In this document: positions 31,123-59,968 of the stretch, piece after piece
How the letters are laid out: each line of letters starts with the position of its first letter
Position numbering within the stretch: the stretch's first letter is position 1
Origin: a bacterium
Lineage (GTDB): Bacteria > Patescibacteriota > Minisyncoccia > Phycocordibacterales > Phycocordibacteraceae
Direction of reading: 5' to 3'
Assembly (NCBI GenBank): GCA_021802705.1
Contig: JAJZRL010000002.1
Span: 25,913 to 89,912 of the forward strand
Length of the DNA stretch: 64,000 nucleotides
Position numbers and translations under genes: made by a program
The notes under the pieces: model-generated
What the model was told of the DNA's origin: nothing
The model's database searches: none
What the model saw: the letters and a program-made list of their open reading frames with translations, nothing else

Positions 31123-31210
31123 TATACATCGGAACAGCTCTCTCGTGAGAGGGGCGTGCGCGTATGCGTCTCGTGCACTATACTGAAAACGTTTGCCGTG
31201 CTCTCGTAGC

Positions 31211-31282
31211 GCTCTCGTCGTTCAACGGATAGGACACCGGCTTGCGGAGCCGGCAATAGAGGTTCGATTCCTCTCGAGAGCA
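31211..31282 (+). tRNA. tRNA-Arg (GCG)
   Basis: GCTCTCGTCGTTCAACGGATAGGACACCGGCTTGCGGAGCCGGCAATAGAGGTTCGATTCCTCTCGAGAGCA. Anticodon stem CCGGC/GCCGG, loop TTGCGGA. Confidence 0.8.
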
Positions 31283-31288
31283 CCCACT

Positions 31289-31639
31289 ATGTCCCGCGTA
31301 GCCGAGTACCTTTTCGCCTTTCTTGCCGGAGGAGCATTTACTCTCATGGTAACGGCATTCGAGCTTTCGGGATTCCCGACGATTTCCCGTATCGCCGCTC
31401 TTTTTCCGGTCGTTACGTGGGTCTCGTATCTTTTCATCGGACACCTTGATGGCGCGGCAGCGGTTTCCCGGCATGCCCTCTTCGTCATGTTCGGTACGCT
31501 CGTGGCATGGATGCCTTACATGTTCATCATCTACTACTTCGCTCCCCGCATCGGCGTGACATGGTCGATAGTATCAGGCATATTCGTATTCCTGCTTCTC
31601 GCTTTCATCTTTGCACTCGTGTATAACAATGTAGCGTAG
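31289..31639 (+). CDS. hypothetical 4-TM membrane protein between two tRNA-Arg genes
   Basis: MSRVAEYLFAFLAGGAFTLMVTAFELSGFPTISRIAALFPVVTWVSYLFIGHLD... ORF 31193 starts inside the tRNA, so the internal Met is used. Confidence 0.45.
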   Translation: MSRVAEYLFAFLAGGAFTLMVTAFELSGFPTISRIAALFPVVTWVSYLFIGHLDGAAAVSRHALFVMFGTLVAWMPYMFIIYYFAPRIGVTWSIVSGIFVFLLLAFIFALVYNNVA

Positions 31640-35354: not shown

Positions 35355-35822
35355 AAACGGGCTTATTATAAGCCCACCTGTTTGTACGATTTCTTGATGG
35401 TCTGGTTCTTTCTGGTTGCGGTAATATGCAGCTTCGAGAGCCAAAAGTGCTTCGAAAATCGGAGCTGGAACGGATTTTAATAACCCCCGTCCGGTCACTC
35501 AAAATGGTCACAGAAGAATATCGTGTAGTGCCGTTTGAGGTCGGATGAGGATTTCCTGCGCAATATCCACGCTCAGCTACCGCTGGTCTTCAAGACGAAG
35601 TAACAGGACTTTTGAATGGCGCTCGAAAGGAGTAAGATACAGGGGTGCGATATGGCCTAAACCTGGCTTCGGCTGGGCATGGCTACAAAACCAATCACGG
35701 TAGAAAGCTCCTCGTCAGGAGCAACCGTGATTGGTCATGTCGGGAAACTGGCATGGGTAGCGAAAGCTATCGCCTGGCGGGGAGCTTTTTGCATTGCTCC
35801 TTGTCGTTTCTTTCAAGACGAA

Positions 35823-36383
35823 ATGACAATTTCCTCAGAACAAAAAGATTTTATAGAAAAAGAGATTCTAAGTCGCACTTTGCAGGGCGCATTTCAACGT
35901 GTGCAGATATATGACAAAAGTGCGACGAACGAAGACCGTGAACAATTTCGTGAGATAGCAAGAAATCTTTTGCGCAAAAGTTCTGTGCCGTATCGTATAC
36001 GGAAGATATCATCGCAAGAACATATAAATAACATCGACACTCTTAAAAGTGAACTGAAGATCGTAAAATTCGGCGTGGCACAAAAGCTTCTTAATCTCTA
36101 TTTGAAATGGCTGTGGTGCGCCGGGTATCTGTATGATGCTCCGCCGCACTGTCCAATCGATTCGATTATCCTTGCAAAGATTAAGACACAAGAACCCCGC
36201 TGGCCTCTTTTGAGTAAAGAACTCTACGAAGAACGAGTTAGAAAGATTAGCGAAATTGCTCAACAAGAAGGTCTCGAAATAGCTTCATGGGAATTGCGTT
36301 TCTTTAATCACTGGAATCCTGCTTATGGAGCTGGGGATAAACCCGGTAGGAAGAAATCCGAGAAGGTTTTAAAACAAAAATAA
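35823..36383 (+). CDS. hypothetical protein, first gene of the low-GC island
   Basis: MTISSEQKDFIEKEILSRTLQGAFQRVQIYDKSATNEDREQFREIARNLL... About 187 aa with AT-rich codon usage unlike flanking genes. No family recognised. Confidence 0.45.
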   Translation: MTISSEQKDFIEKEILSRTLQGAFQRVQIYDKSATNEDREQFREIARNLLRKSSVPYRIRKISSQEHINNIDTLKSELKIVKFGVAQKLLNLYLKWLWCAGYLYDAPPHCPIDSIILAKIKTQEPRWPLLSKELYEERVRKISEIAQQEGLEIASWELRFFNHWNPAYGAGDKPGRKKSEKVLKQK

Positions 36384-47692: not shown

Positions 47693-48793
47693 TTACTGGT
47701 TCATCGGAGAAACCAGATAAAGAAGAGAAGCGTCCCCTACCCCGCGTATGATAAGCGGGCGGCCAGGACCGGCTGCTGAAAGCGAAATGCTTTCTGATTG
47801 AGAGAGAGCGAGTGCGGCGGAAAGATACCGATAATTGAAAGAGAGATCGAGCATGCTTCCGTTTACATGAGCAGGGATCGTTTCCGATGATTCCCCAAGA
47901 TCGGTATTGTGAGCGAAAAAAGAAATATGATTCTTTTTCGGATCGAACCGTATATTCACTTTTTGGAAGATGTCTGAAAAAATCGCTGTTTGTTTGAGGC
48001 TGATTTCGAAATCCTTCCGTAAAACTACGGCTTCGGCGAGCGATTCTTTCGGTATGATCTGACGATAATCCGGATAGGTCGCATTCGTAAGCCTTGAAAC
48101 GATCGTTCCCATCGAACCGATAAAGGCGCAATGGTGGTCGTCAAACGAAACGGCTATATCTTCATCGGGGAGCGCTTGGGCTATTTCAACCGCGTTCTTT
48201 GCAGGTATGAGGAGCTTGCCTTGAGTCCCCTTGTTCGTGAGCGGTATCTTCTTTTCCGCGAGCCTGAACGAATCGGTCGCCACAGCCGTCAACACCCCTC
48301 CTTCGATAGAAAGATAGATGCTTGCGAGCTCGGGTCGGACCGTTGAATTCGAGGTGCAAGACGTAAGCGAAGAAAGAAGCGTCCGCAGGAGAGCTCCGGG
48401 GAGCGTAATCGAGTTTTTCGGATTTTCGGGAAACGGGATCGAGGGAAAATCTTCGTAGGGGACGGTCTTGATCGAGCTTCTGCCCATACCGCTTGAGAGT
48501 GAGACTATGTCTCCTGAGTGTTCGAGCGTTACCGTACCGTCGAGCGTAAGCGAAGCGGCGATCTGCTGGAGGAGCGTCGCTGGGATTGCAACGACACCGT
48601 CAGACACGCGAGTTCCCTCAACGGTAAGATCGATCCCTGTTTCAAGATTGGTCGCGCGCATCTTTATCCCTTCATCGCTGACGATGATGAGGATCGAAGA
48701 GAGCGCCGGGAGCGTCGCGCTTTTACGTTCCGCGAATCTTGCAACCTTATACACAGCATCTATAAATTTCTTCTTTTCTATTGAGATATTCAT
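47693..48793 (-). CDS. dnaN: DNA polymerase III beta sliding clamp
   Basis: MNISIEKKKFIDAVYKVARFAERKSATLPALSSILI... with three-domain clamp pattern, 366 aa. Confidence 0.85.
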   Translation of the reverse strand: MNISIEKKKFIDAVYKVARFAERKSATLPALSSILIIVSDEGIKMRATNLETGIDLTVEGTRVSDGVVAIPATLLQQIAASLTLDGTVTLEHSGDIVSLSSGMGRSSIKTVPYEDFPSIPFPENPKNSITLPGALLRTLLSSLTSCTSNSTVRPELASIYLSIEGGVLTAVATDSFRLAEKKIPLTNKGTQGKLLIPAKNAVEIAQALPDEDIAVSFDDHHCAFIGSMGTIVSRLTNATYPDYRQIIPKESLAEAVVLRKDFEISLKQTAIFSDIFQKVNIRFDPKKNHISFFAHNTDLGESSETIPAHVNGSMLDLSFNYRYLSAALALSQSESISLSAAGPGRPLIIRGVGDASLLYLVSPMNQ

Positions 48794-48905
48794 ACAAGTC
48801 TTTTATTAGAGCTGTTGATAACGGGATAACGATAAGGGTGGCTTAAAATAATGGTTTTTCCTGTTGAGGCATCAACACATTGTGTTGATAAGTGTCGCCG
48901 CACAT
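48794..48905. promoter_or_regulatory. candidate oriC / DnaA-box cluster between dnaN and dnaA
   Basis: AT-rich spacer with TGTTGATAA (one mismatch to TGTGGATAA) at 48813..48821 and 48883..48891. Perfect inverted repeat ATCAACACA-T-TGTGTTGAT at 48871..48889. Confidence 0.4.
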
Positions 48906-50258
48906 TCATACAAGGAGCGTCCGGATATTTTGAATTTCTTTTGCGAGCTCGGTATCCACAACAACTTCACGCTTTATCTTCTCACAGGAGTGGATAACCG
49001 TCGTATGATCGCGTCCGCCGAGCTTCGTGCCGATTGTCGGGTACGAGATATTAAAATCCTCCCGCAAGAGATACATGATGACCTGTCTCGGCCGTACCAC
49101 TTCCCTTCTGCGCGTTTTTTCATAAATACTCTCTTCATCGATCCCGTAGAATTCCGCAACCTTATCGACTACATTCTTAACCGAGACGTTTTTTTGCGGA
49201 CGCATGAACGAGCGTAGCGATTGCCGTATTTCAGCTATATCCGGCGGAGACCCCTTCACCTGAGCATGGCAGATGATGGTATTTACCATACCCTCCAATT
49301 CCCGTATCGATCCGGTTATGGAACATGCAACATACTCAACAACTTCATCGGAAAGCATGATCCCATGAGCAGCGGCCTTTTTCTTGATAATAGCCATACG
49401 CGACTCCGTATCGGGCTCCCCGATATCGACAGCCATACCGCTCGCTAACCGCCCCTTAAGGCGTTCTGTGATATCAGGGATAGCGACAGGTGGCCGGTCG
49501 GACGAAAAGACGATCTGCTTATTCGTATCGTACAGGGCGTTAAAGAGATGGAAAAGCTCTTCCTGGGTCTTTTCTTTCTTTGAAAGAAATTGCACATCAT
49601 CCATGATAAGGAGGTCATATTGACGGTACTTATCCTTAAACCGGTTTGCCGTGCCGGCTTGCACGGAGTCGGTATAATCGACGGCGAATTTTTCGGACGT
49701 AAGATAAAACGCTTTCCGACCCGGATACTGTTTTTTAAATTGATTACCGATAGCTTGTATGAGGTGTGTTTTCCCTCTTCCGGTCGCGCCATAGATAAAG
49801 AGCGGATTATAGGAGATACCCGGGCGCTGCAGGGTTGCTTGCGCGGCCGTATGCGCGAGCGCATTGAACGAACCGACGATGAACGTATCGAAAGTGTAAC
49901 GGGGGTTCAGATTATCGCTTTTATTGATATAGAACTCATGCAGAGGAAGCTCGATAACACCCCGGACCGGCTTCGATTCCTTTACGACCTTACGCCGATC
50001 ATCTTTTACGATGAGGTACTCTATATTGCGGAACTCGTATGATATACCCCGAACTATCTTTAGTAGAAGCGCGTGAAATTTCTTAAGGTACCAGTCTTTG
50101 AAAAACTGGCTCGGAACCCCGATATATACCACCCCCTCGTCATCTATCTTTACTATGAAGCTATTACGGAACCATGTATTGAAATTCGCCGGAGATATGG
50201 AAAGTTCGACCTGGGTGAGCACGTATTCCCATAACTCCCGAGGATTCTTCCTATCCAT
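48906..50258 (-). CDS. dnaA: chromosomal replication initiator DnaA
   Basis: GATGRGKTHLIQAIGN Walker A, FLSKKEKTQEE, and a C-terminal DNA-binding helix (IGTKLGGRDHTTVIHSCEKI). Confidence 0.9.
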   Translation of the reverse strand: MDRKNPRELWEYVLTQVELSISPANFNTWFRNSFIVKIDDEGVVYIGVPSQFFKDWYLKKFHALLLKIVRGISYEFRNIEYLIVKDDRRKVVKESKPVRGVIELPLHEFYINKSDNLNPRYTFDTFIVGSFNALAHTAAQATLQRPGISYNPLFIYGATGRGKTHLIQAIGNQFKKQYPGRKAFYLTSEKFAVDYTDSVQAGTANRFKDKYRQYDLLIMDDVQFLSKKEKTQEELFHLFNALYDTNKQIVFSSDRPPVAIPDITERLKGRLASGMAVDIGEPDTESRMAIIKKKAAAHGIMLSDEVVEYVACSITGSIRELEGMVNTIICHAQVKGSPPDIAEIRQSLRSFMRPQKNVSVKNVVDKVAEFYGIDEESIYEKTRRREVVRPRQVIMYLLREDFNISYPTIGTKLGGRDHTTVIHSCEKIKREVVVDTELAKEIQNIRTLLV

Positions 50259-50355
50259 ATTGTCATGGATTATACGCTTCCTGGAAAAAACATCACCTAC
50301 TGGTGTTTCGTGGAGAACCTGTTAGTATCATGTGTACAATCTAACGATTCCCAGC

Positions 50356-50493
50356 ATGTCAAAACAGACCTATCAGCCGAAGAAACGGAAACGCGCAAAA
50401 ACACATGGTTTCCTCACAAGGACGAAATCAGCTTCCGGTCGCAAGATATTGCGCGGCCGCCGCCGCGTCGGGAGAGCCTCTCTCGCGGTCTGA
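50356..50493 (+). CDS. rpmH: ribosomal protein L34
   Basis: [45 protein letters not shown]; 45 aa, below the ORF-track length cutoff. Confidence 0.85.
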
Positions 50494-50507
50494 TTCGATA
50501 ATTTCCC

Positions 50508-50819
50508 GTGTTTCCGCGCCGAAAACGGCTTTCTCGAGAAAATTTCCCCATCGTCCTTAAGGGCGGCCGAAGGCTCTCTTCGGCGCATTTTAATGCGGTT
50601 TTCTCGGAAGCGACGGAAGGATACGCTGTCGTTCTTTCAAAAAAGACAGCCCCTCTTTCGGTTACGAGACATCTCGTGCGGCGGAGGGTGCTTTCCGCGC
50701 TTCGGACGCTTTCTCTCCCCCCTTCCCTCGTCATTTTCCCGAAACAGTCCGTAACGACGCTTAAACAACAGGATATTCGCGACGAACTTTCCGAACTTCT
50801 TTCTAAAATAAATCGATAG
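50508..50819 (+). CDS. rnpA: RNase P protein component
   Basis: MFPRRKRLSRENFPIVLKGGRRLSS...AVVLSKKTAPLSVTRHLVRRRV has the RnpA basic motif; follows rpmH. Confidence 0.8.
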   Translation: MFPRRKRLSRENFPIVLKGGRRLSSAHFNAVFSEATEGYAVVLSKKTAPLSVTRHLVRRRVLSALRTLSLPPSLVIFPKQSVTTLKQQDIRDELSELLSKINR

Positions 50820-50834
50820 CGTACAATAAGAATC

Positions 50835-51581
50835 GTGATATCAGCCTTCTTCCACACGGCGTTCTATAACCCGATTTACAACGCGCTCGTCGCGCTCGTC
50901 GCTTTTATACCGGGCGGGGACGTCGGGATAGCCGTTATCGTGCTCACAATCATCATAAGGGTCGTTCTCCTCCCTTTTTCGCTCTCCACGGCCCGCACGC
51001 AGCGGGCGATGAAGTTTCTAGAACCGCGGATAAAAGAGCTTAAGGAGAAACATAAGAACAATAAGGAGCAGGAAGCGCTTGAAACGCTCGCTCTTTATCG
51101 CGAAGCGAGGGTTAACCCGTTTGCCGGCATCCTTACGGTTTTCATACAGATACCGGTCCTTCTTGCACTTTACTGGGTTTTTCTCTACGAGCCATTCTCG
51201 ACGCTTGATACGGCACGGCTCTATTTTTTTACCCCAATCCCCCACACCGTTTCCCTCGAATTTCTCGGGATCATTTCCGTCGCCTCAAAAAGCATCTTTC
51301 TCGCGGTGCTCGCCGGGTTTACGCAGTTTCTCCAGGCGCGTCTCGCCCTTTCAGGAATGACGCAACCGGCCGCAAACGAAAAGAGCATGCAGGGCGATTT
51401 CCAAAAAGTGATGAATATGCAGCTCAAATACGTATTCCCATTCATCATCGGCACGATTTCTTATACGACGTCCAGCGCCATAGCTTTATATTTCATCACG
51501 ACGAATATCGCCGGCGCGCTTCAGGAATGGCACGTGCGACACCGCGTACACGCGGAATTCGGACAAGTGTCCGGATCCTGA
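50835..51581 (+). CDS. yidC: membrane protein insertase YidC (short form)
   Basis: IIRVVLLPFSLSTARTQRAMKFLEPRIKELKEKHKNNKEQEA...VFIQIPVLLALYWVF, conserved YidC/Oxa1 core. Confidence 0.85.
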   Translation: MISAFFHTAFYNPIYNALVALVAFIPGGDVGIAVIVLTIIIRVVLLPFSLSTARTQRAMKFLEPRIKELKEKHKNNKEQEALETLALYREARVNPFAGILTVFIQIPVLLALYWVFLYEPFSTLDTARLYFFTPIPHTVSLEFLGIISVASKSIFLAVLAGFTQFLQARLALSGMTQPAANEKSMQGDFQKVMNMQLKYVFPFIIGTISYTTSSAIALYFITTNIAGALQEWHVRHRVHAEFGQVSGS

Positions 51582-51582
51582 T

Positions 51583-52794
51583 TCAAAGCTTATACGCCCA
51601 GAGCGACCCGTCGTTCTTATTGAAGAAAGCGAGAACGCTGTTTGCCGGATCTATCGAGAGCGCCTCGGCATCAAGAGGCGTATTCGTTTCCTTTGAAAAA
51701 TCGAGCACGAGCTGCGCATAGCGGCCGGAAACGTTTATCTTCCAGATACGGTCGGAGAAATGGACGGCCCCCTGATACCAGTCATCCGGATACGCATAGG
51801 TTTCAGGCGGGCTCATCGGCACGCCGCAGTAAATCATCGAGCTGTCCGTTGTCCATGTGCACTTATCAGCGATTGTCGCTATAGGAAGCTGGATCGTCTC
51901 GCCGGTCGTCGCGTTTACAAGCTCCGTCTGCATCCCTTTCGGGAGCGTATAGCTCACGAGCACCCATTCTCCCGACGGGCTTGCAAGCGCGACAAGGCCG
52001 TTTAAGGGCCCCGCAATCCTCGAAAAATGCCCCGCGCCGTCAACGATAAACGCGTCCCCTGGAAGCGTTGCCGACGGTTTCGTAAACGCCAGATAATGCC
52101 CTTTCCCGGCAAAGGAAACGCGAAGCGCTGCGAGCGGGGTCGTGAATACCACCGAGGATCCGGTGCCGTCGGTATGCATGAGAGAAGCCGATGATCCGTT
52201 TACGCCGGAAGCAAGCGCGAGCACACTTGTCGAAGAAACCGAGACATCCGCGAGGTCTTGGGGCAGAAAGAAACCGCTTGAACCGTCTGAGGGCAGCCCA
52301 TAGGTGTTTACCGTGGAAAAATCGGATCCGGAGAGGTAGCGGACGAAGGCGAGAGAGGCGTCGGGAAGCCACGATGCTTCTTCAATTCCCGGGATCGTCC
52401 GGTTGCTTATCCGTGTAAGCGTCCCTGCCTGTACGAGGTATGAAAAGACGTTCCCGCTTTGCCGTTCGATATAGGAGACCCCGACGTCGGGAGACGAGCT
52501 TGCATTTTGTGCGGAAATATCGACCACCGCTTCTCCGGGTACGACCGGACCGGCGCTTATTTCTACGAGCCGGGCTGAGATCGGTACCGGCGAAGGAGCC
52601 TGGACGGCCGTTGTGGTGCTCGCCTCTCCGGGGAGCGTTCCTTGTCCGGCAACCGGTAACCCCGCGGTATTGTCTGTGCCTGTCTTCGGGCCGACCGCAA
52701 GCCTTGCGGAAGGAGCGAAGAAGTAGAAGTATGTCGCCGTTCCGATTCCGGCGAGGAGGATTACGATCGCGGTGATGGTAAGTGTGCGGCGCAT
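51583..52794 (-). CDS. secreted/membrane-anchored hypothetical protein, distal gene of T4SS-like cluster
   Basis: 403 aa, N-terminal TM MRRTLTITAIVILLAGIGTATYFYFF, Ser/Thr/Gly-rich. Confidence 0.5.
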   Translation of the reverse strand: MRRTLTITAIVILLAGIGTATYFYFFAPSARLAVGPKTGTDNTAGLPVAGQGTLPGEASTTTAVQAPSPVPISARLVEISAGPVVPGEAVVDISAQNASSSPDVGVSYIERQSGNVFSYLVQAGTLTRISNRTIPGIEEASWLPDASLAFVRYLSGSDFSTVNTYGLPSDGSSGFFLPQDLADVSVSSTSVLALASGVNGSSASLMHTDGTGSSVVFTTPLAALRVSFAGKGHYLAFTKPSATLPGDAFIVDGAGHFSRIAGPLNGLVALASPSGEWVLVSYTLPKGMQTELVNATTGETIQLPIATIADKCTWTTDSSMIYCGVPMSPPETYAYPDDWYQGAVHFSDRIWKINVSGRYAQLVLDFSKETNTPLDAEALSIDPANSVLAFFNKNDGSLWAYKL

Positions 52795-52795
52795 A

Positions 52796-54046
52796 TTAGT
52801 TTAAAGGTTGCAACGTAAATTGGAGGTTTGGTTGACAAATATAATTATTACTCGAATTGGTGAAATTTGAGAAGGATGTGAATTTGCTAATGATAGAATT
52901 CGCCTGGTTCGCATCAGCAGAATCGAAGCAATAGTATGTTTGATCAAAACATTTTTTACTAGCGCTTCCTGATACTGGTGTTGAGTATGAGGGACAGCTA
53001 GTTTGTGAAAAAAGAGCGGTAGTTTGATTGGTACATACATAGCCGCCATCTGCATTACAGCCGTTTATAAACTGCGATAGAGACGCGCTCGTCTGAGCGT
53101 CAAAGGGCTCCAAGTTTGCGGTTGTCATTGACTGTGCTCCGATATCCATGAGCAAATAAGACTGAGGCGATGCCCCCTCGCAGCTAACAGTCGCTTGAAG
53201 ACAGCCGCTAGAATTAGAAGACGTGCAAGTTACCGAAGAACTATTAGCTCCAAAAAGGCCGAAAAAAGAAGTGCTGCAATTATTTGAAAGCCACTGCTTT
53301 GCAATATTGTCAGCGCTAAGCCCGCCCTTAGCCGCGCAACTCGCGGTTTTTAAATAACTAGTACCAGTAACAGTGCAACCGGTAGCGCTATCGACTGTCG
53401 TAGGGATAGAGTTGTTACCACCTCCCGCAAAAGATGCCGTTTTTAGATTAAGTGGCGGGATATTGAGTGAGAGGTTCAGGATACTCGGATTGATGATGCT
53501 AAAGACGAGGACCGGCGAGAGGACGAGAACGAGACCGAGAAGAGCCTGCGTGATGCGCTTCTTGCCGTCGCTTTGCTTGCTTACGCTGTCTTTCGTCGAT
53601 ATCTCGAGACCACCCCATATGATCATGATAACCGCAAGGATAGCCGCAACGCCGATGAGATATTTATAGAGGTTGTTGAGGAAATTGGAGAGCCCGCTCG
53701 AATTTGCCACGGTTCCTTGCGTAAGGCCGGGAATTCCGGCAAGAGGGACGAATCCGCTGGTGTTTGAGCCTTGCGACGAGACTGTCGTGTTTGAAGGATT
53801 ATTGCTTGCATTTGTTGTCGGATTTGTCGTTTGTCCGGTAGCGCTTGTTCCTGCCGAGGAGCTGGAACCCGATGCTTGGCACGTCATGCTCGCGCCATCA
53901 TATGAAACCTGACACGTGCCGTTCGCACCCGATGACGTGCTGCACGGGACCCCGACGTTTTGGTTCGTACAATCAGTGATCAGCGCCGCATGTGCCACGC
54001 CGACCGTGCCGAGCATTACAAGCGTGAGGAAAGCGAGTTTTTTCAT
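52796..54046 (-). CDS. secreted S/T/N-rich protein with VirB2/TrbC-pilin-like hydrophobic segment
   Basis: Signal peptide, then FVPLAGIPGLTQG...LSNFLNNLYKYLIGVAAILAVIMIIWGGLEI resembling VirB2/TrbC pilin cores. Long Cys-rich C-terminal domain with markedly low GC. Confidence 0.45.
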   Translation of the reverse strand: MKKLAFLTLVMLGTVGVAHAALITDCTNQNVGVPCSTSSGANGTCQVSYDGASMTCQASGSSSSAGTSATGQTTNPTTNASNNPSNTTVSSQGSNTSGFVPLAGIPGLTQGTVANSSGLSNFLNNLYKYLIGVAAILAVIMIIWGGLEISTKDSVSKQSDGKKRITQALLGLVLVLSPVLVFSIINPSILNLSLNIPPLNLKTASFAGGGNNSIPTTVDSATGCTVTGTSYLKTASCAAKGGLSADNIAKQWLSNNCSTSFFGLFGANSSSVTCTSSNSSGCLQATVSCEGASPQSYLLMDIGAQSMTTANLEPFDAQTSASLSQFINGCNADGGYVCTNQTTALFSQTSCPSYSTPVSGSASKKCFDQTYYCFDSADANQANSIISKFTSFSNFTNSSNNYICQPNLQFTLQPLN

Positions 54047-55047
54047 AAGCCGAATAGGTTACCGCTCCCCTGCGTTTCGAAAGAAAGCGGCAGAACCGTC
54101 GTCGCCTTTATGAAATCTCCCGAAGAACCGACGAGCGAAAGCGATGCGCTGCCCTTCCCCGATCCGGTTGGCCGGAGCGTTATCAGGTTGCCGGTTTGTG
54201 AAAGCGCGTTATTCAAAAACCATTGAAGCGCCGGCGCGCCGGTTCCGGTCGGGAAGGAGAAAGGAGCCGCATAGAGAGATGTTTCTGTTCCGGTGATAGT
54301 GTATCCTCCCGAAAGCGTATGGTCATAGAGAATGCCGAGGAGCGGATCGTTTATATAGATACGCACGGTCGGTTCCTGAGCCGTAAGCGAAACGGATGCT
54401 CCGCCCACAAAGACTCCATTCTGGCTCTCGACGACAACCGAGACATTCCTACTACGGTACTGGAGCGGCGAGGCGACAATGATGGCTTCTTTTCCGATAC
54501 CCGAAACGCTCGATATGCTCGCCCCGTCCACCGTCCACGCGTACGAAAGCGTGGCGGGATCGAGAGGCTTCCCCGCGGCGTTCCTAATGTCTGCCATCGC
54601 AACGACGCGTACGGTCCCCTCAAGCGGTACGAGCGGGTTCCCCGGATAGAGCGCCGGCGCCGAAGAGATCGGCTCGGCGATAAGCACGACATCCTGCGGC
54701 CGTACGGAGACGCTGCGGCTGTACGTTGTTCCTCCCGATGAGATGACCGCTTTGATTGTCGTAAGGCTCCCCGCTTCCCCGAGAGGAATGCTGACCGGCT
54801 GCACATTTCCTGAATAGGTTTCCTTGCCGTTGACGAAAACCGTCATCGTCGCGTTTGCCAGGTTGAGCGATGTCGAAAGCGCGGTAAGGGTTACCGAGCT
54901 CGAAGGAGAAGGGTTTTGCGGGCTTATCGAAAGAGAGAAAGGATCAACGCTGTTGACATTGAACGATTGTGCGCCGGCTAGAACGGGCAAGAAAAAAGCA
55001 AGCCCGAGGAAGGTGATGCGAAGTGGCCGGAATGAGAACCCTTTCAT
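54043..55047 (-). CDS. secreted hypothetical protein with Ig-like repeats
   Basis: 334 aa with signal peptide MKGFSFRPLRITFLGLAFFLPVLAGAQS. 4-nt overlap with the upstream gene. Confidence 0.5.
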   Translation of the reverse strand: MKGFSFRPLRITFLGLAFFLPVLAGAQSFNVNSVDPFSLSISPQNPSPSSSVTLTALSTSLNLANATMTVFVNGKETYSGNVQPVSIPLGEAGSLTTIKAVISSGGTTYSRSVSVRPQDVVLIAEPISSAPALYPGNPLVPLEGTVRVVAMADIRNAAGKPLDPATLSYAWTVDGASISSVSGIGKEAIIVASPLQYRSRNVSVVVESQNGVFVGGASVSLTAQEPTVRIYINDPLLGILYDHTLSGGYTITGTETSLYAAPFSFPTGTGAPALQWFLNNALSQTGNLITLRPTGSGKGSASLSLVGSSGDFIKATTVLPLSFETQGSGNLFGL

Positions 55048-55077
55048 TGCTCTTAGTATATCGCGTGCGCAAGAACT

Positions 55078-55707
55078 TTATGCGGCTTTGCGCACATCGT
55101 CGGGGATTTCATCCATACTCTCATCATTTGCCGCTTCGGCCGCTTTTATTTGTGTGATTTGCGCGGCTATCTGAGCCTGTTCTTGCCTTCCGGATTCGGC
55201 TTGCTCGCTCTCGTATCGTGCCAACGCCTCCCGATCCCGCTTTATTTGAGAGTGATACATCTTGAACGTAGTGCCGGTGAGTCCCGGCAATGAGCCGATA
55301 AAGGGCGTCTCGCTTATGAGAAGGCCAAACATAAACCAAAGCATATTGCCCGATGATTCCTTGAAGATACGCGCATTGGTGAGCATGATCATCAACCCAA
55401 CCGTAAGCCATCCGAAGAAACCAACCGCCACCGCCAAGATGATTCCGAGAACCTCAAGAGCAGGCCCGATGACGAATCCGGAGACACCTCCGCCCGCGGT
55501 GCCGAGAATACTGCTGATCCAAGTACCGAACAAACCGCTTGTTGCGGCAGTCGTACCGACGCCGATAAGGACCGGCCCGAAAAACCAAAACTGTTCGAAG
55601 AGGAACCGGACCGCATCAAAGACGAGCGCGGTTGTCATGACCGGCATCGCCCGCGTCCAGGTCATAACGCGCGGAGGCTCTTTACTGCTGTTTCTGCGTG
55701 AGATCAT
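55078..55707 (-). CDS. polytopic membrane protein (possible VirB6/TrbL-like channel component)
   Basis: 209 aa with at least 4 TM helices and a C-terminal coiled/charged tail. Its 5' end overlaps the VirB4 gene 3' end. Confidence 0.4.
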   Translation of the reverse strand: MISRRNSSKEPPRVMTWTRAMPVMTTALVFDAVRFLFEQFWFFGPVLIGVGTTAATSGLFGTWISSILGTAGGGVSGFVIGPALEVLGIILAVAVGFFGWLTVGLMIMLTNARIFKESSGNMLWFMFGLLISETPFIGSLPGLTGTTFKMYHSQIKRDREALARYESEQAESGRQEQAQIAAQITQIKAAEAANDESMDEIPDDVRKAA

Positions 55708-57505
55708 GTCGTTCTTTTTCCCCTTTTATCGCGAGAAGCTGCGAAGGGTCTGACGTGATGATCTGGTCTTCGGTATAGCTTGCGACGATCTTTATCGCGA
55801 CATGCTTCAGTCCCGCAAAGAAGAGCCCTTCCCCGACGCCTGCTTCAAGGAGCAGATATTTCTCTTCATCGGTCAGACTGAAGGTTTCTTGCAAGACCTT
55901 GATGCTTGTCGGAGATTGTTTCAGCAGGAGCTGCAACGAGGAGTTCGCAAGGATCGGCCGCCCATACGGGCTCCTGATGAAATCTTCGACATCCTGCGTT
56001 ATGGTGCAGACGCCGAGGTAGTACTTGCGGCCGCGTTTCGCGACGGAATACAAGAACGAAGCCGTATCTTCGCTTTTCATCATCCACCACGCCTCGTCGA
56101 TGACAAGCAGGCGCTTTTTCAACTCGTGACGTATCGCGTTCCATATGTAATGCGTCACGATATACATCGCCACCGGCTTGAGCTCGTCTTCCATATCGCG
56201 TATCGAGAAAACGGCGAATTGGTGCCGGAAATCGACATTCGTCGGCTGATTGAGGAATCCGGACCACGTGCCGCGGGTATATTTGGAAAGCCTCTCGACG
56301 AGAGACTCGCTCCCTTCCATGCCGGAGAGCACCTGTTCGAAATCGGAAAGCAGCGGGGGCTCGGCGCCGGTGAAATCGGCGTCGCCAGTGATGTCTTTCA
56401 GCGCATAGGTTTCGCTGACCGCGCGATCGATGATGGCATCTTCTTCCGGGGTGAGTCCGCCAAGCATGATGCGGAAGAGCCCGACAAGCGCGATGATATT
56501 GGAGCGCAAGATGTCCCGCGGATCCTCGTCTTCTTTGACCGGCGGCAGGTCGAACGGGTTGATGTGGTGTTCGGAAGAGAGCGAGATGCGGAACGAACGG
56601 CCTCCGGTCGCTTCCGCAAGCTGTCCGTACTCCTGTTCAGGATCGATGACGATAACGTCCGCGCCGAACATGAGCGAACGAAGTATCTCAAGCTTTGCGG
56701 AGTAGCTCTTGCCGCTGCCGGATTTCGCGAAAACGACCGAATTGTAGTTCTCAAGCGAGAAGCGATCGAAGAGGATGAGCGAAGAATTGTGCCGGTTGAT
56801 GCCATAGAGAATGCCGCGGTCGCTCGTAAGGTCGAATGAAACGAAGGGGAATATGGAAGAAAGAGGAGAAGAGTTCAATTTCGAATTGACGAGGAGCTCG
56901 TCGGTCCCGAGCGGCAGGCAGGACCGGAATCCTTGTTCCTGCTGGAAAAGGGCTGGTTTGGTATATACGAGCTTTGAATCAAGGATGCTGCGGATATCAC
57001 CCTCGGTCTTGCTTATCTCTTCTTTTGAATCGCCGTAGAGCGCAAGATAGAGTCCGACATCGAAAAGCTTCTCCTGTGCCTGCTGGAGATCGTTTCGCAG
57101 GTTCTCCAGGTCCTGATATGCAGTATCAAGGAGCGGGTCGCGTACCAGACCCTTTGCCTCACGGTCGTTTATCTGGCTCTGAACCTCGGCGACCTTTTTT
57201 TGGAAGCCGCGAAGCGCTTGTTCGGTTTCGATGGGATGGATGAATATGGAGATATCAAGCACCTTGTCGAGGTTGATGACCGGAGAAAACCAGCTGTCGA
57301 CGAGAAAGCGCGGGTATGAAATGGTATAGAATGCTCGAACGAATTTCTCACCGAGCTCGACTTCCCTCGAGCTTATCTTAAGCGCCGTCGGAGCGATCGT
57401 ATCGATGAGATCGAGAGATCCCTGCTGGTAGATGTCTTTCGGAAGGACCGGCATTATTTCCGGCGTTTCTTCTTTTTTGCGATTGAGAAAATCGAGGAGC
57501 GACAT
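55682..57505 (-). CDS. VirB4/TrbE-family type IV secretion ATPase, ATPase portion
   Basis: Walker A VVFAKSGSGKSYSAK, Walker B LLVIDEAWWMM (DEAW hallmark of VirB4), 607 aa. Confidence 0.8.
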   Translation of the reverse strand: MSLLDFLNRKKEETPEIMPVLPKDIYQQGSLDLIDTIAPTALKISSREVELGEKFVRAFYTISYPRFLVDSWFSPVINLDKVLDISIFIHPIETEQALRGFQKKVAEVQSQINDREAKGLVRDPLLDTAYQDLENLRNDLQQAQEKLFDVGLYLALYGDSKEEISKTEGDIRSILDSKLVYTKPALFQQEQGFRSCLPLGTDELLVNSKLNSSPLSSIFPFVSFDLTSDRGILYGINRHNSSLILFDRFSLENYNSVVFAKSGSGKSYSAKLEILRSLMFGADVIVIDPEQEYGQLAEATGGRSFRISLSSEHHINPFDLPPVKEDEDPRDILRSNIIALVGLFRIMLGGLTPEEDAIIDRAVSETYALKDITGDADFTGAEPPLLSDFEQVLSGMEGSESLVERLSKYTRGTWSGFLNQPTNVDFRHQFAVFSIRDMEDELKPVAMYIVTHYIWNAIRHELKKRLLVIDEAWWMMKSEDTASFLYSVAKRGRKYYLGVCTITQDVEDFIRSPYGRPILANSSLQLLLKQSPTSIKVLQETFSLTDEEKYLLLEAGVGEGLFFAGLKHVAIKIVASYTEDQIITSDPSQLLAIKGEKERHDLTQKQQ

Positions 57506-57519
57506 AGTTTTATAATAGG

Positions 57520-58152
57520 TTAGGCGTCAAGCCGGATCGGGTTCTCGAGCTCTCCGGGATTGAAAGAGCGGTAGAGGAGCTCGATGATCTCTTCGGTCCC
57601 GAGCGGGACCGCACGAATACCCGAACTCCCGAGCCCGCTTGCAACGAGCGCGAGGCGCTGCTCGAGCTGCGCGCGATTCTCTTCGAAAGACAGATCGGCG
57701 GCATTCGCAGCCACCGGATTCCCGCGATGGAGGAATCCGACCGCGTTTACGGGGGAAACCCGCGGCGAATACGGAACAACGACGTAAAACGATTTTGTCA
57801 TGATGTTCGCCTGATCCGTGAACGAACGTATGAACTCTATGTACTCGTGCAGTTGGATTCGCATAAGCTCGGTTTCTTGCCCGGCGGCCTTTTCAGAAAG
57901 CAGCGCGAGGTACGGCCGTAAGTCCATCTTGCGCGAATTCACGACGATCTGAATCGAGAAGTCGAGCACGTTAAGGAAGTTCTGGAACCCGAGGATGATG
58001 GCATGCTGTTCGTCAGCGGATTTCAGGCCGAAATTGACCGAGGAACAGATAAGGACGCCGCGGTAGCTGTCGTCTTTGAGGACGATGATGCCGTTCCGGA
58101 TCTCTTTGACCGGAACGAATTGCTGCGTTGCGCCCACTGTTTTTGCGGCCAT
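57520..58152 (-). CDS. VirB4 N-terminal (CagE_TrbE_VirB-like) domain encoded as a separate ORF
   Basis: 210 aa: EIRNGIIVLKDDSYRGVLICSSVNFGLKSADEQHAIILGFQNFLNVLDFSIQIVVNSRKMDLRPYL resembles VirB4/TrbE N-terminal domains. It ends 14 nt before the ATPase ORF, which is in another frame. Confidence 0.55.
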   Translation of the reverse strand: MAAKTVGATQQFVPVKEIRNGIIVLKDDSYRGVLICSSVNFGLKSADEQHAIILGFQNFLNVLDFSIQIVVNSRKMDLRPYLALLSEKAAGQETELMRIQLHEYIEFIRSFTDQANIMTKSFYVVVPYSPRVSPVNAVGFLHRGNPVAANAADLSFEENRAQLEQRLALVASGLGSSGIRAVPLGTEEIIELLYRSFNPGELENPIRLDA

Positions 58153-58153
58153 A

Positions 58154-58594
58154 TTATAGGTTCGTATTATCGGAGGTATCCTGTGTCGATTTTACATCAA
58201 GCGACCAGGCAAGTTCCGAGAGTTTCCCGCGCGTGAGCTTCGGGGTGCCGCGCGTCGGTTGCTCTTGAGGCATTGCCGCTGTCGCGCCGCCGGCGCCTTC
58301 TTTCTTTGCTTCCCCTTCTTCGTGTTTCCATAGGAAGAGCCTTGCGCGGGTGTAGTAATTGAAACCGGCTTCGAGTATTTCGACGAAAGGCTTCCCGTTC
58401 ATTTTGTAGAACGCGAGCGCTCCCGCGAGTGCCACGACGGGTATGGAGAACAGGAGCGCAAGCACGATTGGAAGGTAGACGAAGAATATCGCGCAAAAAC
58501 CGCCCGCACCGGCGACGTAGATGAACTGCTTCAGGGTTAGAGGCCCGACGATTCTATCCTCGACATCGATGAACTGCGGCACTTGATACTCCAT
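58154..58594 (-). CDS. VirB3-like small membrane protein
   Basis: 146 aa MEYQVPQFIDVEDRIVGPLTLKQFIYVAGAGGFCAIFFVYLPIVLALLFSIPVVALAGALAFY; two TM helices, immediately upstream of the VirB4 ORFs. Confidence 0.45.
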   Translation of the reverse strand: MEYQVPQFIDVEDRIVGPLTLKQFIYVAGAGGFCAIFFVYLPIVLALLFSIPVVALAGALAFYKMNGKPFVEILEAGFNYYTRARLFLWKHEEGEAKKEGAGGATAAMPQEQPTRGTPKLTRGKLSELAWSLDVKSTQDTSDNTNL

Positions 58595-58642
58595 TGTCTG
58601 CAGTATAGCAGCCGTACGCCGCCGAGAAACGTTTTACCGTGT

Positions 58643-59968
58643 TTACGGACACTCCCCGTTCGCAGCGGTCTTTTTGAGAATTTGTTCTGGCGAGGAGCCC
58701 TGTTCGTAATGCAGGAACGCTTCGGGATGTGCATCCCACTCCTTCCGCACGGCGTCGACGATGCGCCACGACTCGAGCACTTCTCCGCTCGACGCGAAAA
58801 GAGTGTGGTCTCCGCGCAAAGCGTCGAGAAGGACGTGTTCATACGCGTCAGGGAGCGCGCCGAAATGGTCGGCATATGCGAATGCGAGAGGGACGCGCTC
58901 GATCGTCCGGTCATACCCCGGACGCTTGGCGAAGAAACAGAGCTCGATACCCTCGTTCGGCTGGATACGGAGCGTCAACCGGTTCGATTGTGATATGTCG
59001 GTACGCCGATACGTGATAACGATTTCCGTTTTCTTCTCCCCGAGCGCCTTTCCGGTCGTGAGGGTTATAGGCACATCGCTCCAGCGAGGATCTGTCGAAG
59101 AAAGCGTGATCGAAGCGAACGTTTCAACCATCGAGTCCGGATTTCCCACTTCATCGCGATACCCCTCGTATTGTCCGCGATAGATGCGGTCGGGAACGAC
59201 CTCAAGCGCGCGTAAAGCCGCTTGTCGCGCCTGCGGCACTTCATGCCACGCGTCTTTTTCGGGAAGGGTCATGAGCGTAAGGGCGGCGAGCTGAAGCAGG
59301 TGGCTTTGGACCAGGTCGCGCAATGCGCCGGTCTGCTCATAAAAGGCGACGCGCCCTTCGATCCCGATGGTTTCGCTCGCGAGGATGTCGATACGCTCGA
59401 TCGCTTCGCTATTCCACGTATGTTCGAAGAGCGGATTGTCGCGCCGAAAAAAAAGTATGTTTTGAACCGTTTCCTTTGCGAGATAGTGATCGATCCGGTA
59501 GACCTGTTCCGACGAAAAAGAACGTTCGATATGCTTCACAAGCTCTTTCGCGCTCTCTTCGTCGACCCCGAAAGGCTTCTCGAGGAGCAGTTTCGTATTC
59601 GGGATGTCGGCAAGCCCCGAGCCCCCGAGCTGTTCGATGATGGGCCGCGCGGTTTTCGGCGGCACGGAGAGATACCACAGGCGTTGCGCCGTGCCGCCCT
59701 GCTCGCGTTCGATATCGCGAAGGTACGAGTCGAGACGGGCAAAATCAGCGGTCTCCGTAAGCGACATCGGGAAAAGCGTCGTGCGGGCGCGGATATACTC
59801 CGCATGAGCGATGCCGGTTAAGAGTGACTCGATGTCGGCGGTTTGCTGCCGCGTGATGCCGACGATACGCAGTTGTGCCGGCAAGACACCCGCCTTAGCC
59901 ATCTCGCCGATAGCCGGCAACAGTTTTCGACGTGAAAGGTTGCCGGTAATACCGACGATGATGAGGAT
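58643..59968 (-). CDS. zwf: glucose-6-phosphate 1-dehydrogenase
   Basis: RIDHYLAKE (G6PD signature DHYLGKE) and an N-terminal NADP-binding GITGNLSRRKL. Start at MGNNAF. Confidence 0.85.
   Translation of the reverse strand: MLIIVGITGNLSRRKLLPAIGEMAKAGVLPAQLRIVGITRQQTADIESLLTGIAHAEYIRARTTLFPMSLTETADFARLDSYLRDIEREQGGTAQRLWYLSVPPKTARPIIEQLGGSGLADIPNTKLLLEKPFGVDEESAKELVKHIERSFSSEQVYRIDHYLAKETVQNILFFRRDNPLFEHTWNSEAIERIDILASETIGIEGRVAFYEQTGALRDLVQSHLLQLAALTLMTLPEKDAWHEVPQARQAALRALEVVPDRIYRGQYEGYRDEVGNPDSMVETFASITLSSTDPRWSDVPITLTTGKALGEKKTEIVITYRRTDISQSNRLTLRIQPNEGIELCFFAKRPGYDRTIERVPLAFAYADHFGALPDAYEHVLLDALRGDHTLFASSGEVLESWRIVDAVRKEWDAHPEAFLHYEQGSSPEQILKKTAANGECP

What the first reader, a model, noticed from the sequence alone, without database searches (positions are those of the whole stretch)
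57495..57530. VirB4 is split: N-terminal domain and ATPase are separate ORFs in different frames, 14 nt apart with no ribosome-binding site
The 210-aa ORF ends (...NPIRLDA-stop at 57520) and the 607-aa ATPase ORF begins 14 nt downstream (ATG at 57505) in another frame. Together they total about 817 aa, the usual VirB4 size. This could be a genuine split gene translated by coupling, a programmed frameshift, a sequencing indel, or a pseudogenised VirB4.
Basis: seen in the sequence. Interest (0 to 1): 0.5.

Follow-up and report, generated by a model that had tools for sequence, protein, structure and literature searches.

The report
Two-gene VirB4: TrsD-like plus ATPase
The "split VirB4" is real, but it is the normal, already published two-gene layout of the type IV secretion ATPase in Patescibacteria (a small TrsD-like protein followed by a shortened VirB4), not an error, a frameshift or a dead gene.

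Summary
On the minus strand a 210-aa ORF (58152..57520, stop TAA) is followed after 14 nt (CCTATTATAAAACT) by the ATG of a 607-aa ATPase ORF (57505..55682). The ATPase is in another frame and has no Shine-Dalgarno sequence.

The two products are colinear with one full-length VirB4: NCBIfam CD1110 model positions 1-164 and 183-733. The predicted fold of the 210-aa protein matches only R388 TrwK/VirB4 chains.

The split is not an artefact.
- The same junction occurs in four independent assemblies.
- All 82 species-level loci examined have a stop codon followed by an own ATG. Spacers are 1-6 nt in 63 of 82, all three frame relations occur, and four loci carry an inserted gene.
- Both proteins are strongly conserved (about 80% and 90% identity).

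The same breakpoint exists in Staphylococcus plasmid pSK41 (TrsD plus TrsE). Quiñonero-Coronel et al. 2025 already report TrsD homologues next to virB4 as the most abundant T4SS component in Patescibacteria, and essential in Southlakia.

Most likely mechanism (inferred): one prgI-trsD-virB4 operon, transcribed as a leaderless mRNA. virB4 is translated by termination-reinitiation coupling, and the TrsD-like protein supplies in trans the first half of the VirB4 N-terminal domain.

Verdict: already known, low interest.

The parts
58154..58594 (-). prgI (VirB3-like small membrane protein, 146 aa); first gene of the cluster. Its stop is 1 nt before the ATG of the next gene (TAAtATG).
   Evidence: Pfam PF12666 PrgI, E 4.5e-10, above cutoff. 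A TATACT box lies at -13..-8 from the ATG. A TANNNT box at -14..-11 is present in 68 of 79 related loci.
57520..58152 (-). TrsD-like / 'TraC-like' protein, 210 aa. It is homologous to the first ~200 residues of full-length VirB4.
   Evidence: NCBIfam: CD1110 VirB4 model positions 1-164 (E 2e-6), Mbov_0397 VirB4 102-233 (E 2.6e-9), TrsD/TraD (E 0.0085). Precomputed Pfam PF26593 TraC-like for the identical protein P0001. AF2 model pLDDT 88.5; the top 14 Foldseek PDB hits are all R388 TrwK/VirB4. 4550 homologues; the best 120 are all 210-219 aa.
57506..57519 (-). 14-nt spacer CCTATTATAAAACT between the TAA stop and the virB4 ATG. It is AT-rich, has no Shine-Dalgarno sequence, and contains TATTAT at -12..-7.
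   Evidence: Related loci have spacers of 1-6 nt in 63 of 82. TANNNT at -12 is seen in only 7 of 82 virB4 starts.
55682..57505 (-). VirB4-like ATPase lacking the first ~180 residues of the family model, 607 aa. Walker A is KSGSGKS and Walker B is LLVIDEAW.
   Evidence: NCBIfam NF045971 CD1110 family, 374.7 bits (cutoff 325), model positions 183-733 of 752. Pfam P-loop_TraG, AAA_10, DUF87. PDB 4AG5 E 2e-42. Relatives are 592-611 aa at 87-93% identity. It aligns from residue 3 with pSK41 TrsE residue 2.
55078..55707 (-). 209-aa hydrophobic protein. Its ORF overlaps the virB4 3' end by 26 nt, and an SD-like AAAGGGG lies upstream.
   Evidence: ORF list. No family hit. Syntenic 242-249-aa gene in L001 and L003, overlapping virB4 by 20 nt. 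Anti-SD duplex -8.0 kcal/mol.
54043..55047 (-). 334-aa protein with an N-terminal signal-like segment; syntenic member of the cluster.
   Evidence: Weak Cadherin-like and BiPBP_C hits. Syntenic 316-332-aa gene in L001 and L003.
52796..54046 (-). 416-aa protein with a VirB2-like T4SS pilin domain.
   Evidence: Pfam PF18895 T4SS_pilin, E 2e-10, above cutoff. The same family is seen at the matching place in L003.
48906..50258 (-). dnaA (context only). The T4SS cluster lies just upstream of dnaA-dnaN on the same strand.
   Evidence: Pfam Bac_DnaA, E 1.4e-61; dnaN at 47693..48793. This matches the published dnaA proximity of the Patescibacteria T4SS (PMC12102498).

Best explanation
This is a genuine, ancient two-gene form of the type IV secretion ATPase. 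A free-standing TrsD-like protein of 210 aa corresponds to the first half of the VirB4 N-terminal domain. It is encoded directly upstream of an N-terminally shortened VirB4 ATPase of 607 aa, and directly downstream of prgI (VirB3-like). All three lie in a chromosomal T4SS cluster of a Kaiserbacteria/Paceibacteria-type Patescibacterium, next to dnaA.

Shown here: the homology and colinearity with VirB4, lineage-wide conservation of the stop-plus-ATG junction, and the same breakpoint as TrsD/TrsE of pSK41.

Inferred:
(a) The three genes are co-transcribed from a -10 box placed 12-13 nt before the prgI ATG, giving a leaderless mRNA.
(b) virB4 is translated without a Shine-Dalgarno sequence, by termination-reinitiation coupling at the very short, AT-rich junction.
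(c) The TrsD-like protein binds the ATPase in trans and completes its N-terminal domain. In the R388 structure this is the part that VirB3 wraps and that mediates VirB4-VirB4 contacts. In this way it would dock the ATPase to PrgI at the membrane.
For: Colinearity with one VirB4:
- The two ORFs cover CD1110 model positions 1-164 and 183-733, and Mbov_0397 positions 102-233 and 285-893.
- The natural fusion P0359 (Ca. Colwellbacteria, 797 aa) aligns to the two window ORFs at its residues 6-214 and 226-796.

Fold:
- The AF2 model has pLDDT 88.5. The best 14 PDB matches are all TrwK/VirB4 (prob 1.0, TMq 0.42-0.56) and the next hits have E>0.2.
- A weak profile alignment places it at TrwK residues 12-139.

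Conservation:
- There are 4550 homologues and the best 120 are 210-219 aa at about 80% identity.
- The ATPase relatives are 592-611 aa at 87-93% identity.
- 149 of the best 150 cluster representatives are standalone.

Junction:
- All 82 loci have a stop codon followed by an ATG that aligns to residue 1. Spacers are 1-6 nt in 63 of 82, and the frame offsets are 35/26/21.
- Four loci have a 114-134-aa gene inserted between the two genes.
- The identical 81-nt junction occurs in four assemblies.

Precedent:
- pSK41 has trsD (227 aa), a 14-nt gap, then TrsE (672 aa). The window ATPase aligns with TrsE from residue 3 to residue 2, including LLDFLNRKKEE/IMAFLKKKKQE.
- Firmicutes plasmids have the order PrgI-TrsD-DUF87 ATPase.

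Literature:
- PMC12102498 reports 2,272 TrsD homologues in Patescibacteria, 1,664 of them next to virB4, and a TrsD homologue that is essential in Southlakia.
- PMC9259494 states that VirB3 wraps the VirB4 N-terminal domain and that this domain (residues 15-400) mediates the dimer interface.

Translation:
- SD duplex energies at 29 gene starts equal the background (-2.8 against -2.8 kcal/mol).
- A TANNNT box lies at -13/-12 in 8 of 29 window genes (p about 1e-8), and before prgI in 68 of 79 loci.
Against: - Sequence similarity to the curated TrsD/TraD model is weak (15.9 bits against a cutoff of 200). hhalign against pSK41 TrsD gives E 4.6e-4 and probability 33%.
- The local Pfam scan returned no family for the 210-aa protein, although the precomputed annotation lists PF26593.
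- No direct evidence here for co-transcription, for reinitiation, or for physical binding of the two proteins.
- The full-length model of the natural fusion was too poor to show how the two parts pack (pLDDT 51.6).
- In this window the spacer is longer than in most relatives (14 nt) and carries TATTAT at -12. An internal leaderless promoter could therefore replace coupling here.
Confidence: 0.9

Rival explanations
1. Sequencing or assembly indel: a single full-length virB4 was broken by a 1-nt error near 57520-57526.
For: In principle, a 1-nt insertion within the four bases CGCC between the ATPase-frame TGA and the TAA would join the ORFs (direct reading). Real breaks of this kind do occur in assemblies: in L002 the ATPase itself is cut into 289 + 259 aa, whereas it is intact in L001.
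Against: - The same 81-nt junction is present in contigs from four different ENA assemblies. One of them differs at 8 other positions.
- All 82 species-level loci have the stop and their own ATG, with differing spacers and frames.
- Standalone relatives carry long disordered C-terminal tails, or an inserted gene after the stop.
Confidence: 0.01
2. Programmed ribosomal frameshift or readthrough produces a fused full-length VirB4 from the two ORFs.
For: The two ORFs are adjacent, in different frames, and together have the length of VirB4. A natural fused form exists in Ca. Colwellbacteria.
Against: - The frame relation is not conserved: offsets 0, 1 and 2 occur in 26, 35 and 21 of 82 loci.
- The permissive zone in this window is 4 nt long and has no slippery heptamer.
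- The ATPase ATG and its first residues (M-[SAG]-L-L-D-F) are conserved and align to residue 1. They also align to the start of pSK41 TrsE.
- Some loci have 91-496 nt or a whole gene between the ORFs.
Confidence: 0.01
3. Pseudogenised VirB4: the T4SS is decaying and the two ORFs are remnants.
For: None beyond the split itself.
Against: - Both ORFs are full length relative to hundreds of relatives and are highly conserved (about 80% and 87-93% identity).
- The Walker A and B motifs are intact (sequence).
- The ATPase scores above the curated NCBIfam cutoff.
- The whole syntenic cluster (prgI, membrane protein, pilin-like gene) is intact.
- T4SS genes, including the TrsD homologue, are essential in a cultivated relative (PMC12102498; PMC10633639).
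Confidence: 0.01
4. The two-gene architecture is the same, but in this genome virB4 is expressed from its own internal promoter as a leaderless mRNA, rather than by translational coupling to trsD.
For: - TATTAT lies at -12..-7 from the virB4 ATG. This is the position at which 7 other gene starts in the window carry a TANNNT box (8 of 29 including virB4; chance p about 1e-8).
- The spacer here (14 nt) is longer than the 1-6 nt typical of relatives.
- Relatives with long spacers often have a -10-like box near the ATG (sequences).
Against: - The box lacks the TGn extension seen at several of the other starts.
- Only 7 of 82 virB4 starts have TANNNT at -12.
- The consensus promoter scan finds nothing at the junction, and its totals are at chance level.
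- No terminator lies between the genes.
Confidence: 0.2

Closest known systems
TrsD homologue + VirB4 of the Patescibacteria T4SS (Quiñonero-Coronel et al. 2025, Microb Genom, PMC12102498; essential T4SS of Ca. Southlakia epibionticum, Wang et al. 2023, PMC10633639)
   Same: - A small protein remotely homologous to the VirB4 N-terminus, encoded next to virB4, with PrgI/VirB3 and VirB2-like pilins in the cluster.
- Chromosomal location near dnaA.
- No relaxase or coupling protein was seen in the neighbourhood examined here.
- The window's proteins belong to this set by high identity to Kaiserbacteria/Paceibacteria entries.
   Different: Nothing essential. This report adds three details that were not found in the passages of that paper read here: the junction anatomy (1-6 nt spacers, all three frames, no SD), the shared breakpoint with pSK41 TrsE, and a fused form in Colwellbacteria.
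TrsD/TraD + TrsE/TraE of Staphylococcus plasmids pSK41/pGO1 (MPF_FATA, pGO1 subclass; NCBIfam NF041427)
   Same: - Gene order: VirB3-like, then TrsD (227 aa), then ATPase (672 aa).
- The ATPases align from their very first residues, so the breakpoint is the same.
- By coincidence, the gap is also 14 nt.
   Different: - Only remote sequence similarity for the small protein (NCBIfam 15.9 bits against a cutoff of 200; hhalign E 4.6e-4).
- The pSK41 system is plasmid-borne and conjugative, with a relaxase and a VirD4-like coupling protein. The cluster here is chromosomal and lies next to dnaA.
Full-length VirB4 ATPases (R388 TrwK, PDB 7O41/8RTB; CD1110 family of Firmicutes ICEs)
   Same: - The two window proteins together cover the whole family model in order.
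- The fold of the small protein matches TrwK.
- The ATPase domain matches 4AG5 and TrwK 446-741.
   Different: One polypeptide there, two here. The cut falls inside the N-terminal domain (TrwK residues 15-400, PMC9259494), not at the boundary between that domain and the C-terminal ATPase domain.
VirB3-VirB4 fusion proteins of some conjugative systems (mentioned in PMC12102498)
   Same: Both show that the membrane-proximal modules of the VirB3/VirB4 unit can be rearranged between polypeptides.
   Different: The direction is opposite (fusion rather than fission). No VirB3-VirB4 fusion is present here.

Membership tests
TrsD/TraD family (NCBIfam NF041427; MPF_FATA pGO1 subclass) | Sequence matches the curated family model above its cutoff | tested here: not met
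   E 0.0085, 15.9 bits against a cutoff of 200 bits; model positions 19-142 of 201. The model is a narrow subfamily model.
TrsD/TraD family (NCBIfam NF041427; MPF_FATA pGO1 subclass) | Detectable full-length homology to the prototype TrsD of pSK41 | tested here: inconclusive
   hhalign of alignment A1 against pSK41 TrsD: E 4.6e-4, probability 33%, 172 colinear columns (16-207 against 34-216), 16% identity.
TrsD/TraD family (NCBIfam NF041427; MPF_FATA pGO1 subclass) | Small standalone protein encoded between a VirB3-like gene and an N-terminally short VirB4-like ATPase | tested here: met
   The window has the order prgI - 210 aa - 607 aa. pSK41 has hypothetical/TrsC - trsD - DUF87 ATPase. The ATPases align from their first residues.
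TrsD/TraD family (NCBIfam NF041427; MPF_FATA pGO1 subclass) | Homology to the N-terminal part of full-length VirB4 | tested here: met
   CD1110 model positions 1-164 and Mbov_0397 positions 102-233. Foldseek top 14 hits are TrwK/VirB4. The fused relative P0359 aligns to the 210-aa protein at its residues 6-214.
Pfam PF26593 (TraC-like domain) | Match to the Pfam model | tested here: inconclusive
   Precomputed annotation lists PF26593 for the identical protein P0001 and for all 120 listed homologues. The local hmmscan of Pfam-A returned no family at E <= 0.1. The local copy may lack this model.
VirB4-like conjugal transfer ATPase, CD1110 family (NCBIfam NF045971) | Whole-protein score above the curated cutoff | tested here: met
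   The 607-aa ORF scores 374.7 bits against a cutoff of 325, E 9e-112.
VirB4-like conjugal transfer ATPase, CD1110 family (NCBIfam NF045971) | Single polypeptide covering the whole model, including the N-terminal ~180 positions | tested here: not met
   The 607-aa ORF covers positions 183-733 only. Positions 1-164 are on the separate 210-aa ORF.
VirB4-like conjugal transfer ATPase, CD1110 family (NCBIfam NF045971) | Walker A and Walker B nucleotide-binding motifs | tested here: met
   The translation contains FAKSGSGKSYS and RLLVIDEAWW. Residues 230-585 match the solved VirB4 ATPase domain 4AG5 (E 2e-42).
Programmed ribosomal frameshift site | Conserved frame relation, overlap zone with a slippery sequence, and no independent start for the downstream ORF | tested here: not met
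   Frame offsets are 26/35/21 across 82 loci. The zone is 4 nt with no slippery site. The ATG is conserved and aligns to residue 1.
Translationally coupled gene pair (termination-reinitiation) | Stop and start codons overlapping or a few nucleotides apart, on one mRNA | tested here: inconclusive
   Spacers are 1-6 nt in 63 of 82 loci and TAAtATG is frequent. No terminator or consensus promoter lies between the genes. Co-transcription and reinitiation themselves cannot be tested with these tools. The window's 14-nt spacer is at the long end.

The most novel reading that the evidence does not exclude
The fission may not be neutral. Keeping the first half of the VirB4 N-terminal domain as a free subunit could let the cell control its stoichiometry. 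Only some ATPase protomers would then be capped by TrsD and docked to PrgI/VirB3. This would parallel the VirB3-bound 'central' and VirB3-free 'outside' VirB4 subunits of R388. In this genome, an internal leaderless promoter (TATTAT at -12 from the virB4 ATG) could add ATPase expression that is independent of trsD.
Probability: 0.12. Interest if true: 0.4.

Novelty: already known. Interest (0 to 1): 0.12.

Why it matters
It matters mainly for annotation. Genome pipelines and readers should not flag this junction as a frameshifted or pseudogenised virB4. The 210-aa "hypothetical protein" should be named as a TrsD-like VirB4 N-terminal module.

Biologically, the Patescibacteria T4SS is essential for epibiotic growth in the one tractable species. 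Its ATPase works as a two-piece enzyme whose breakpoint is shared with staphylococcal conjugative plasmids. Natural fused and split versions are therefore available for testing what the VirB4 N-terminal half does.

Tried and rejected
- Genome-collection scan with the 36-sequence alignment A1 failed because it had no sufficiently conserved stretch. It was repeated with the closer alignment A2.
- A PDB sequence search with the A1 profile found nothing meaningful, so fold comparison was needed.
- The local Pfam scan gave no family for the 210-aa ORF.
- The consensus promoter/terminator scan of 51000-59200 was at chance level and showed nothing at the junction.
- The substitute, a model of the natural Colwellbacteria fusion with an unpaired alignment, came out at pLDDT 51.6 and pTM 0.31. 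It was discarded without a fold search.
- The main text of Guglielmini et al. 2014 does not contain the word TrsD. The statement that TrsD resembles the VirB4 N-terminus is therefore cited from PMC12102498 only.
- The pNP40 paper and the T4SS nomenclature review say nothing about TrsD.
- Indel, frameshift and pseudogene readings were considered and rejected (see the rival explanations).
Full report
**1. The observation**

Reading the minus strand confirms the coordinates.
- A 210-aa ORF runs 58152..57520 and ends ...NPIRLDA-TAA.
- After 14 nt (CCTATTATAAAACT, 57519..57506) an ATG at 57505 opens a 607-aa ORF that ends at 55682.
- The ATPase frame is -1/+2 relative to the first ORF. It is closed by a TGA 21 nt before its ATG, so only the four bases CGCC lie between the two stops (and direct reading).
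- No Shine-Dalgarno sequence precedes the ATG. The best duplex with the anti-SD is +1.9 kcal/mol.

**2. What the two ORFs are**

- The 607-aa product is a VirB4-like ATPase. It scores 374.7 bits on NCBIfam NF045971 (CD1110 family; cutoff 325) over model positions 183-733 of 752. It has Pfam P-loop_TraG, AAA_10 and DUF87 domains. Residues 230-585 match the solved VirB4 ATPase domain 4AG5 at E 2e-42. The Walker A (KSGSGKS) and Walker B (LLVIDEAW) motifs are visible.
- The 210-aa product matches positions 1-164 of the same CD1110 model, positions 102-233 of the Mbov_0397 VirB4 model, and, weakly, the TrsD/TraD family.
- Its AlphaFold model is confident (pLDDT 88.5, pTM 0.78). The best 14 Foldseek matches in the PDB are all chains of R388 TrwK/VirB4 (probability 1.0, TM 0.42-0.56 over about 200-210 columns). 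The next hits are noise.
- A weak profile alignment places it at TrwK residues 12-139.
- The two products are therefore colinear with one VirB4. The cut lies inside the N-terminal domain (TrwK residues 15-400 according to PMC9259494), because the 607-aa ORF keeps about 230 residues ahead of the ATPase domain.
- The gene upstream (58594..58154) is prgI, the VirB3-like partner. Downstream come a hydrophobic 209-aa protein, a 334-aa protein and a protein with a T4SS pilin domain, followed by dnaA and dnaN.

**3. Artefact, frameshift or pseudogene?**

None of the three readings holds.
- The 210-aa protein has 4550 homologues in the large protein collection. The best 120 are all 210-219 aa at about 80% identity, from Kaiserbacteria/Paceibacteria-type Patescibacteria.
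- The ATPase relatives are 592-611 aa at 87-93% identity.
- In the exhaustive search of cluster representatives, 2447 clusters match. Only one of the best 150 carries the ATPase part.
- I fetched 80 loci from different species-level genomes, added two metagenome loci and the window, and measured every junction. All 82 have a stop codon followed by an ATG that aligns to residue 1 of the window's ATPase.
- Spacers are 1-6 nt in 63 loci, 8-33 nt in 10 (the window's 14 nt among them), 91-117 nt in 5 and 421-496 nt in 4.
- The three possible frame relations occur 26, 35 and 21 times.
- None of the 82 loci has a strong Shine-Dalgarno motif.
- In the four loci with the longest gaps, a low-GC gene for a 114-134-aa four-helix-bundle-like protein sits between the two genes.
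- Longer relatives of the small protein (296-443 aa) end in disordered Pro/Ala/Thr/Gln-rich tails, not in an ATPase.
- The identical 81-nt junction is present in contigs from four different ENA assemblies. One of these differs from the window at eight other positions.

**4. How old is the arrangement?**

- tblastn against plasmids finds standalone TrsD-like ORFs on 96 plasmids, mostly of Firmicutes. The two neighbourhoods inspected show PrgI-TrsD-DUF87 ATPase and TrsD-DUF87 ATPase.
- In the prototype pSK41, trsD (227 aa) is followed after 14 nt by the TrsE ATPase (672 aa).
- The window's ATPase aligns with TrsE from residue 3 to residue 2, including the N-terminal LLDFLNRKKEE / IMAFLKKKKQE (E 6e-39). 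The breakpoint is therefore the same, and the fission most likely predates the transfer of this T4SS type into Patescibacteria.
- The small proteins themselves are only remotely similar (hhalign E 4.6e-4).
- One lineage, Ca. Colwellbacteria, has a 797-aa fused protein seen in three MAGs. In it a short linker replaces the tail of the small protein and the first ~30 residues of the ATPase.

**5. What is already published**

- Quiñonero-Coronel et al. 2025 (PMC12102498) surveyed the T4SS of Patescibacteria. [quoted passage not shown] They found 2,272 homologues, 1,664 of them next to virB4.
- They also report that the TrsD homologue of Ca. Southlakia epibionticum is listed as essential, and that the cluster is often near dnaA.
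- Wang et al. 2023 describe the essential T4SS of that organism.
- Pfam (PF26593, TraC-like) and NCBIfam (TrsD/TraD) hold models for such proteins.
- The finding is therefore a known architecture.

**6. How it most likely works**

Shown: the two-gene architecture and its conservation. Everything below is inferred.
- Translation in this genome is largely independent of Shine-Dalgarno sequences. Anti-SD duplex energies at 29 ATG gene starts equal the background (-2.8 against -2.8 kcal/mol).
- Eight of the 29 starts carry a TANNNT box beginning at -13 or -12 (chance p about 1e-8), several with a TGn extension. This is the signature of leaderless mRNAs.
- prgI has such a box in the window and in 68 of 79 related loci. 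I therefore infer a leaderless prgI-trsD-virB4 transcript.
- No terminator or consensus promoter separates the genes. The junctions are tight: TAAtATG between prgI and trsD, 14 nt between trsD and virB4, and a 26-nt overlap with the next ORF. I therefore infer translation by termination-reinitiation coupling.
- A minority alternative for this genome is an internal leaderless promoter, because TATTAT sits at -12 from the virB4 ATG. Only 7 of 82 relatives share a box at that position.
- At the protein level I infer that the small protein completes the ATPase's N-terminal domain in trans and links it to PrgI. In R388, VirB3 wraps the VirB4 N-terminal domain, and that domain mediates VirB4-VirB4 contacts (PMC9259494).
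- I could not test binding.

**7. Verdict**

It is an already known, lineage-wide architecture rather than a peculiarity of this genome. Interest is low. The practical value is correct annotation of the 210-aa "hypothetical protein" and of the junction.

Noticed in passing
window gene starts, e.g. 58594 (prgI), 55047, 13819, 17854, 32426, 34224, 4305: Eight of 29 ATG gene starts carry a TANNNT box beginning exactly 13 or 12 nt upstream, several with a TGn extension. Shine-Dalgarno pairing is no better than at random positions. The genome appears to use leaderless mRNAs widely. The box before prgI is conserved in 68 of 79 related loci.
   Followed up: partly
window 47693-58594 (minus strand): The T4SS cluster (prgI, trsD-like, virB4, membrane protein, pilin-like gene) lies immediately upstream of dnaA (50258..48906) and dnaN (48793..47693) on the same strand. 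This matches the published origin-proximal location of the Patescibacteria T4SS (PMC12102498).
   Followed up: partly
window 35654-35771 (+): There is a strong match to the Rfam family LOOT RNA (RF03000, 94 bits against a gathering score of 46). It overlaps the start of a mechanically listed ORF (35679..36383) that has an unusually low third-position GC (0.38 against about 0.65 elsewhere), in the lowest-GC part of the window.
   Followed up: no
P0359 / P0391 / P0392 (Ca. Colwellbacteria, 797 aa): This is a natural fused TrsD-VirB4 protein, found in three MAGs, among otherwise split relatives. A short linker replaces the tail of the small protein and the first ~30 residues of the ATPase. It is probably a secondary re-fusion.
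   Followed up: partly
L056:4622-5042, L060:4634-5129, L067:4640-5103, L082:4640-5125: In four related species a low-GC (0.28-0.35) insert lies between trsD and virB4. In three of them it holds an ORF of 114-134 aa that looks like the four-helix-bundle / 23S rRNA intervening-sequence protein family (the resemblance is from memory; no family scan was run). In L060 only a shorter 55-aa ORF of that kind remains.
   Followed up: no
P0251, P0253, P0266, P0291, P0301, P0306, P0324, P0363: These are TrsD-like proteins of 296-443 aa. Their extra length is a disordered C-terminal tail rich in Pro, Ala, Thr, Gln and Glu, with no ATPase part.
   Followed up: no
L002:4636-6453 compared with L001:4636-6453: In one assembly (ERZ27254767) the virB4 ATPase itself is called as two ORFs (289 + 259 aa). 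The otherwise matching JGI contig has one ORF of 605 aa.
   Followed up: no
window 55682-55707: The ORF after virB4 (209 aa, hydrophobic, no family hit) overlaps the virB4 3' end by 26 nt if its first ATG is used. It is one of the few starts in the window with an SD-like sequence (AAAGGGG, -8.0 kcal/mol).
   Followed up: no
window 31193-31639 and 31211-31284: A mechanically listed 148-aa ORF overlaps tRNA-Arg(gcg) and is almost certainly not a gene. Nine tRNA genes lie between 18167 and 35354.
   Followed up: no
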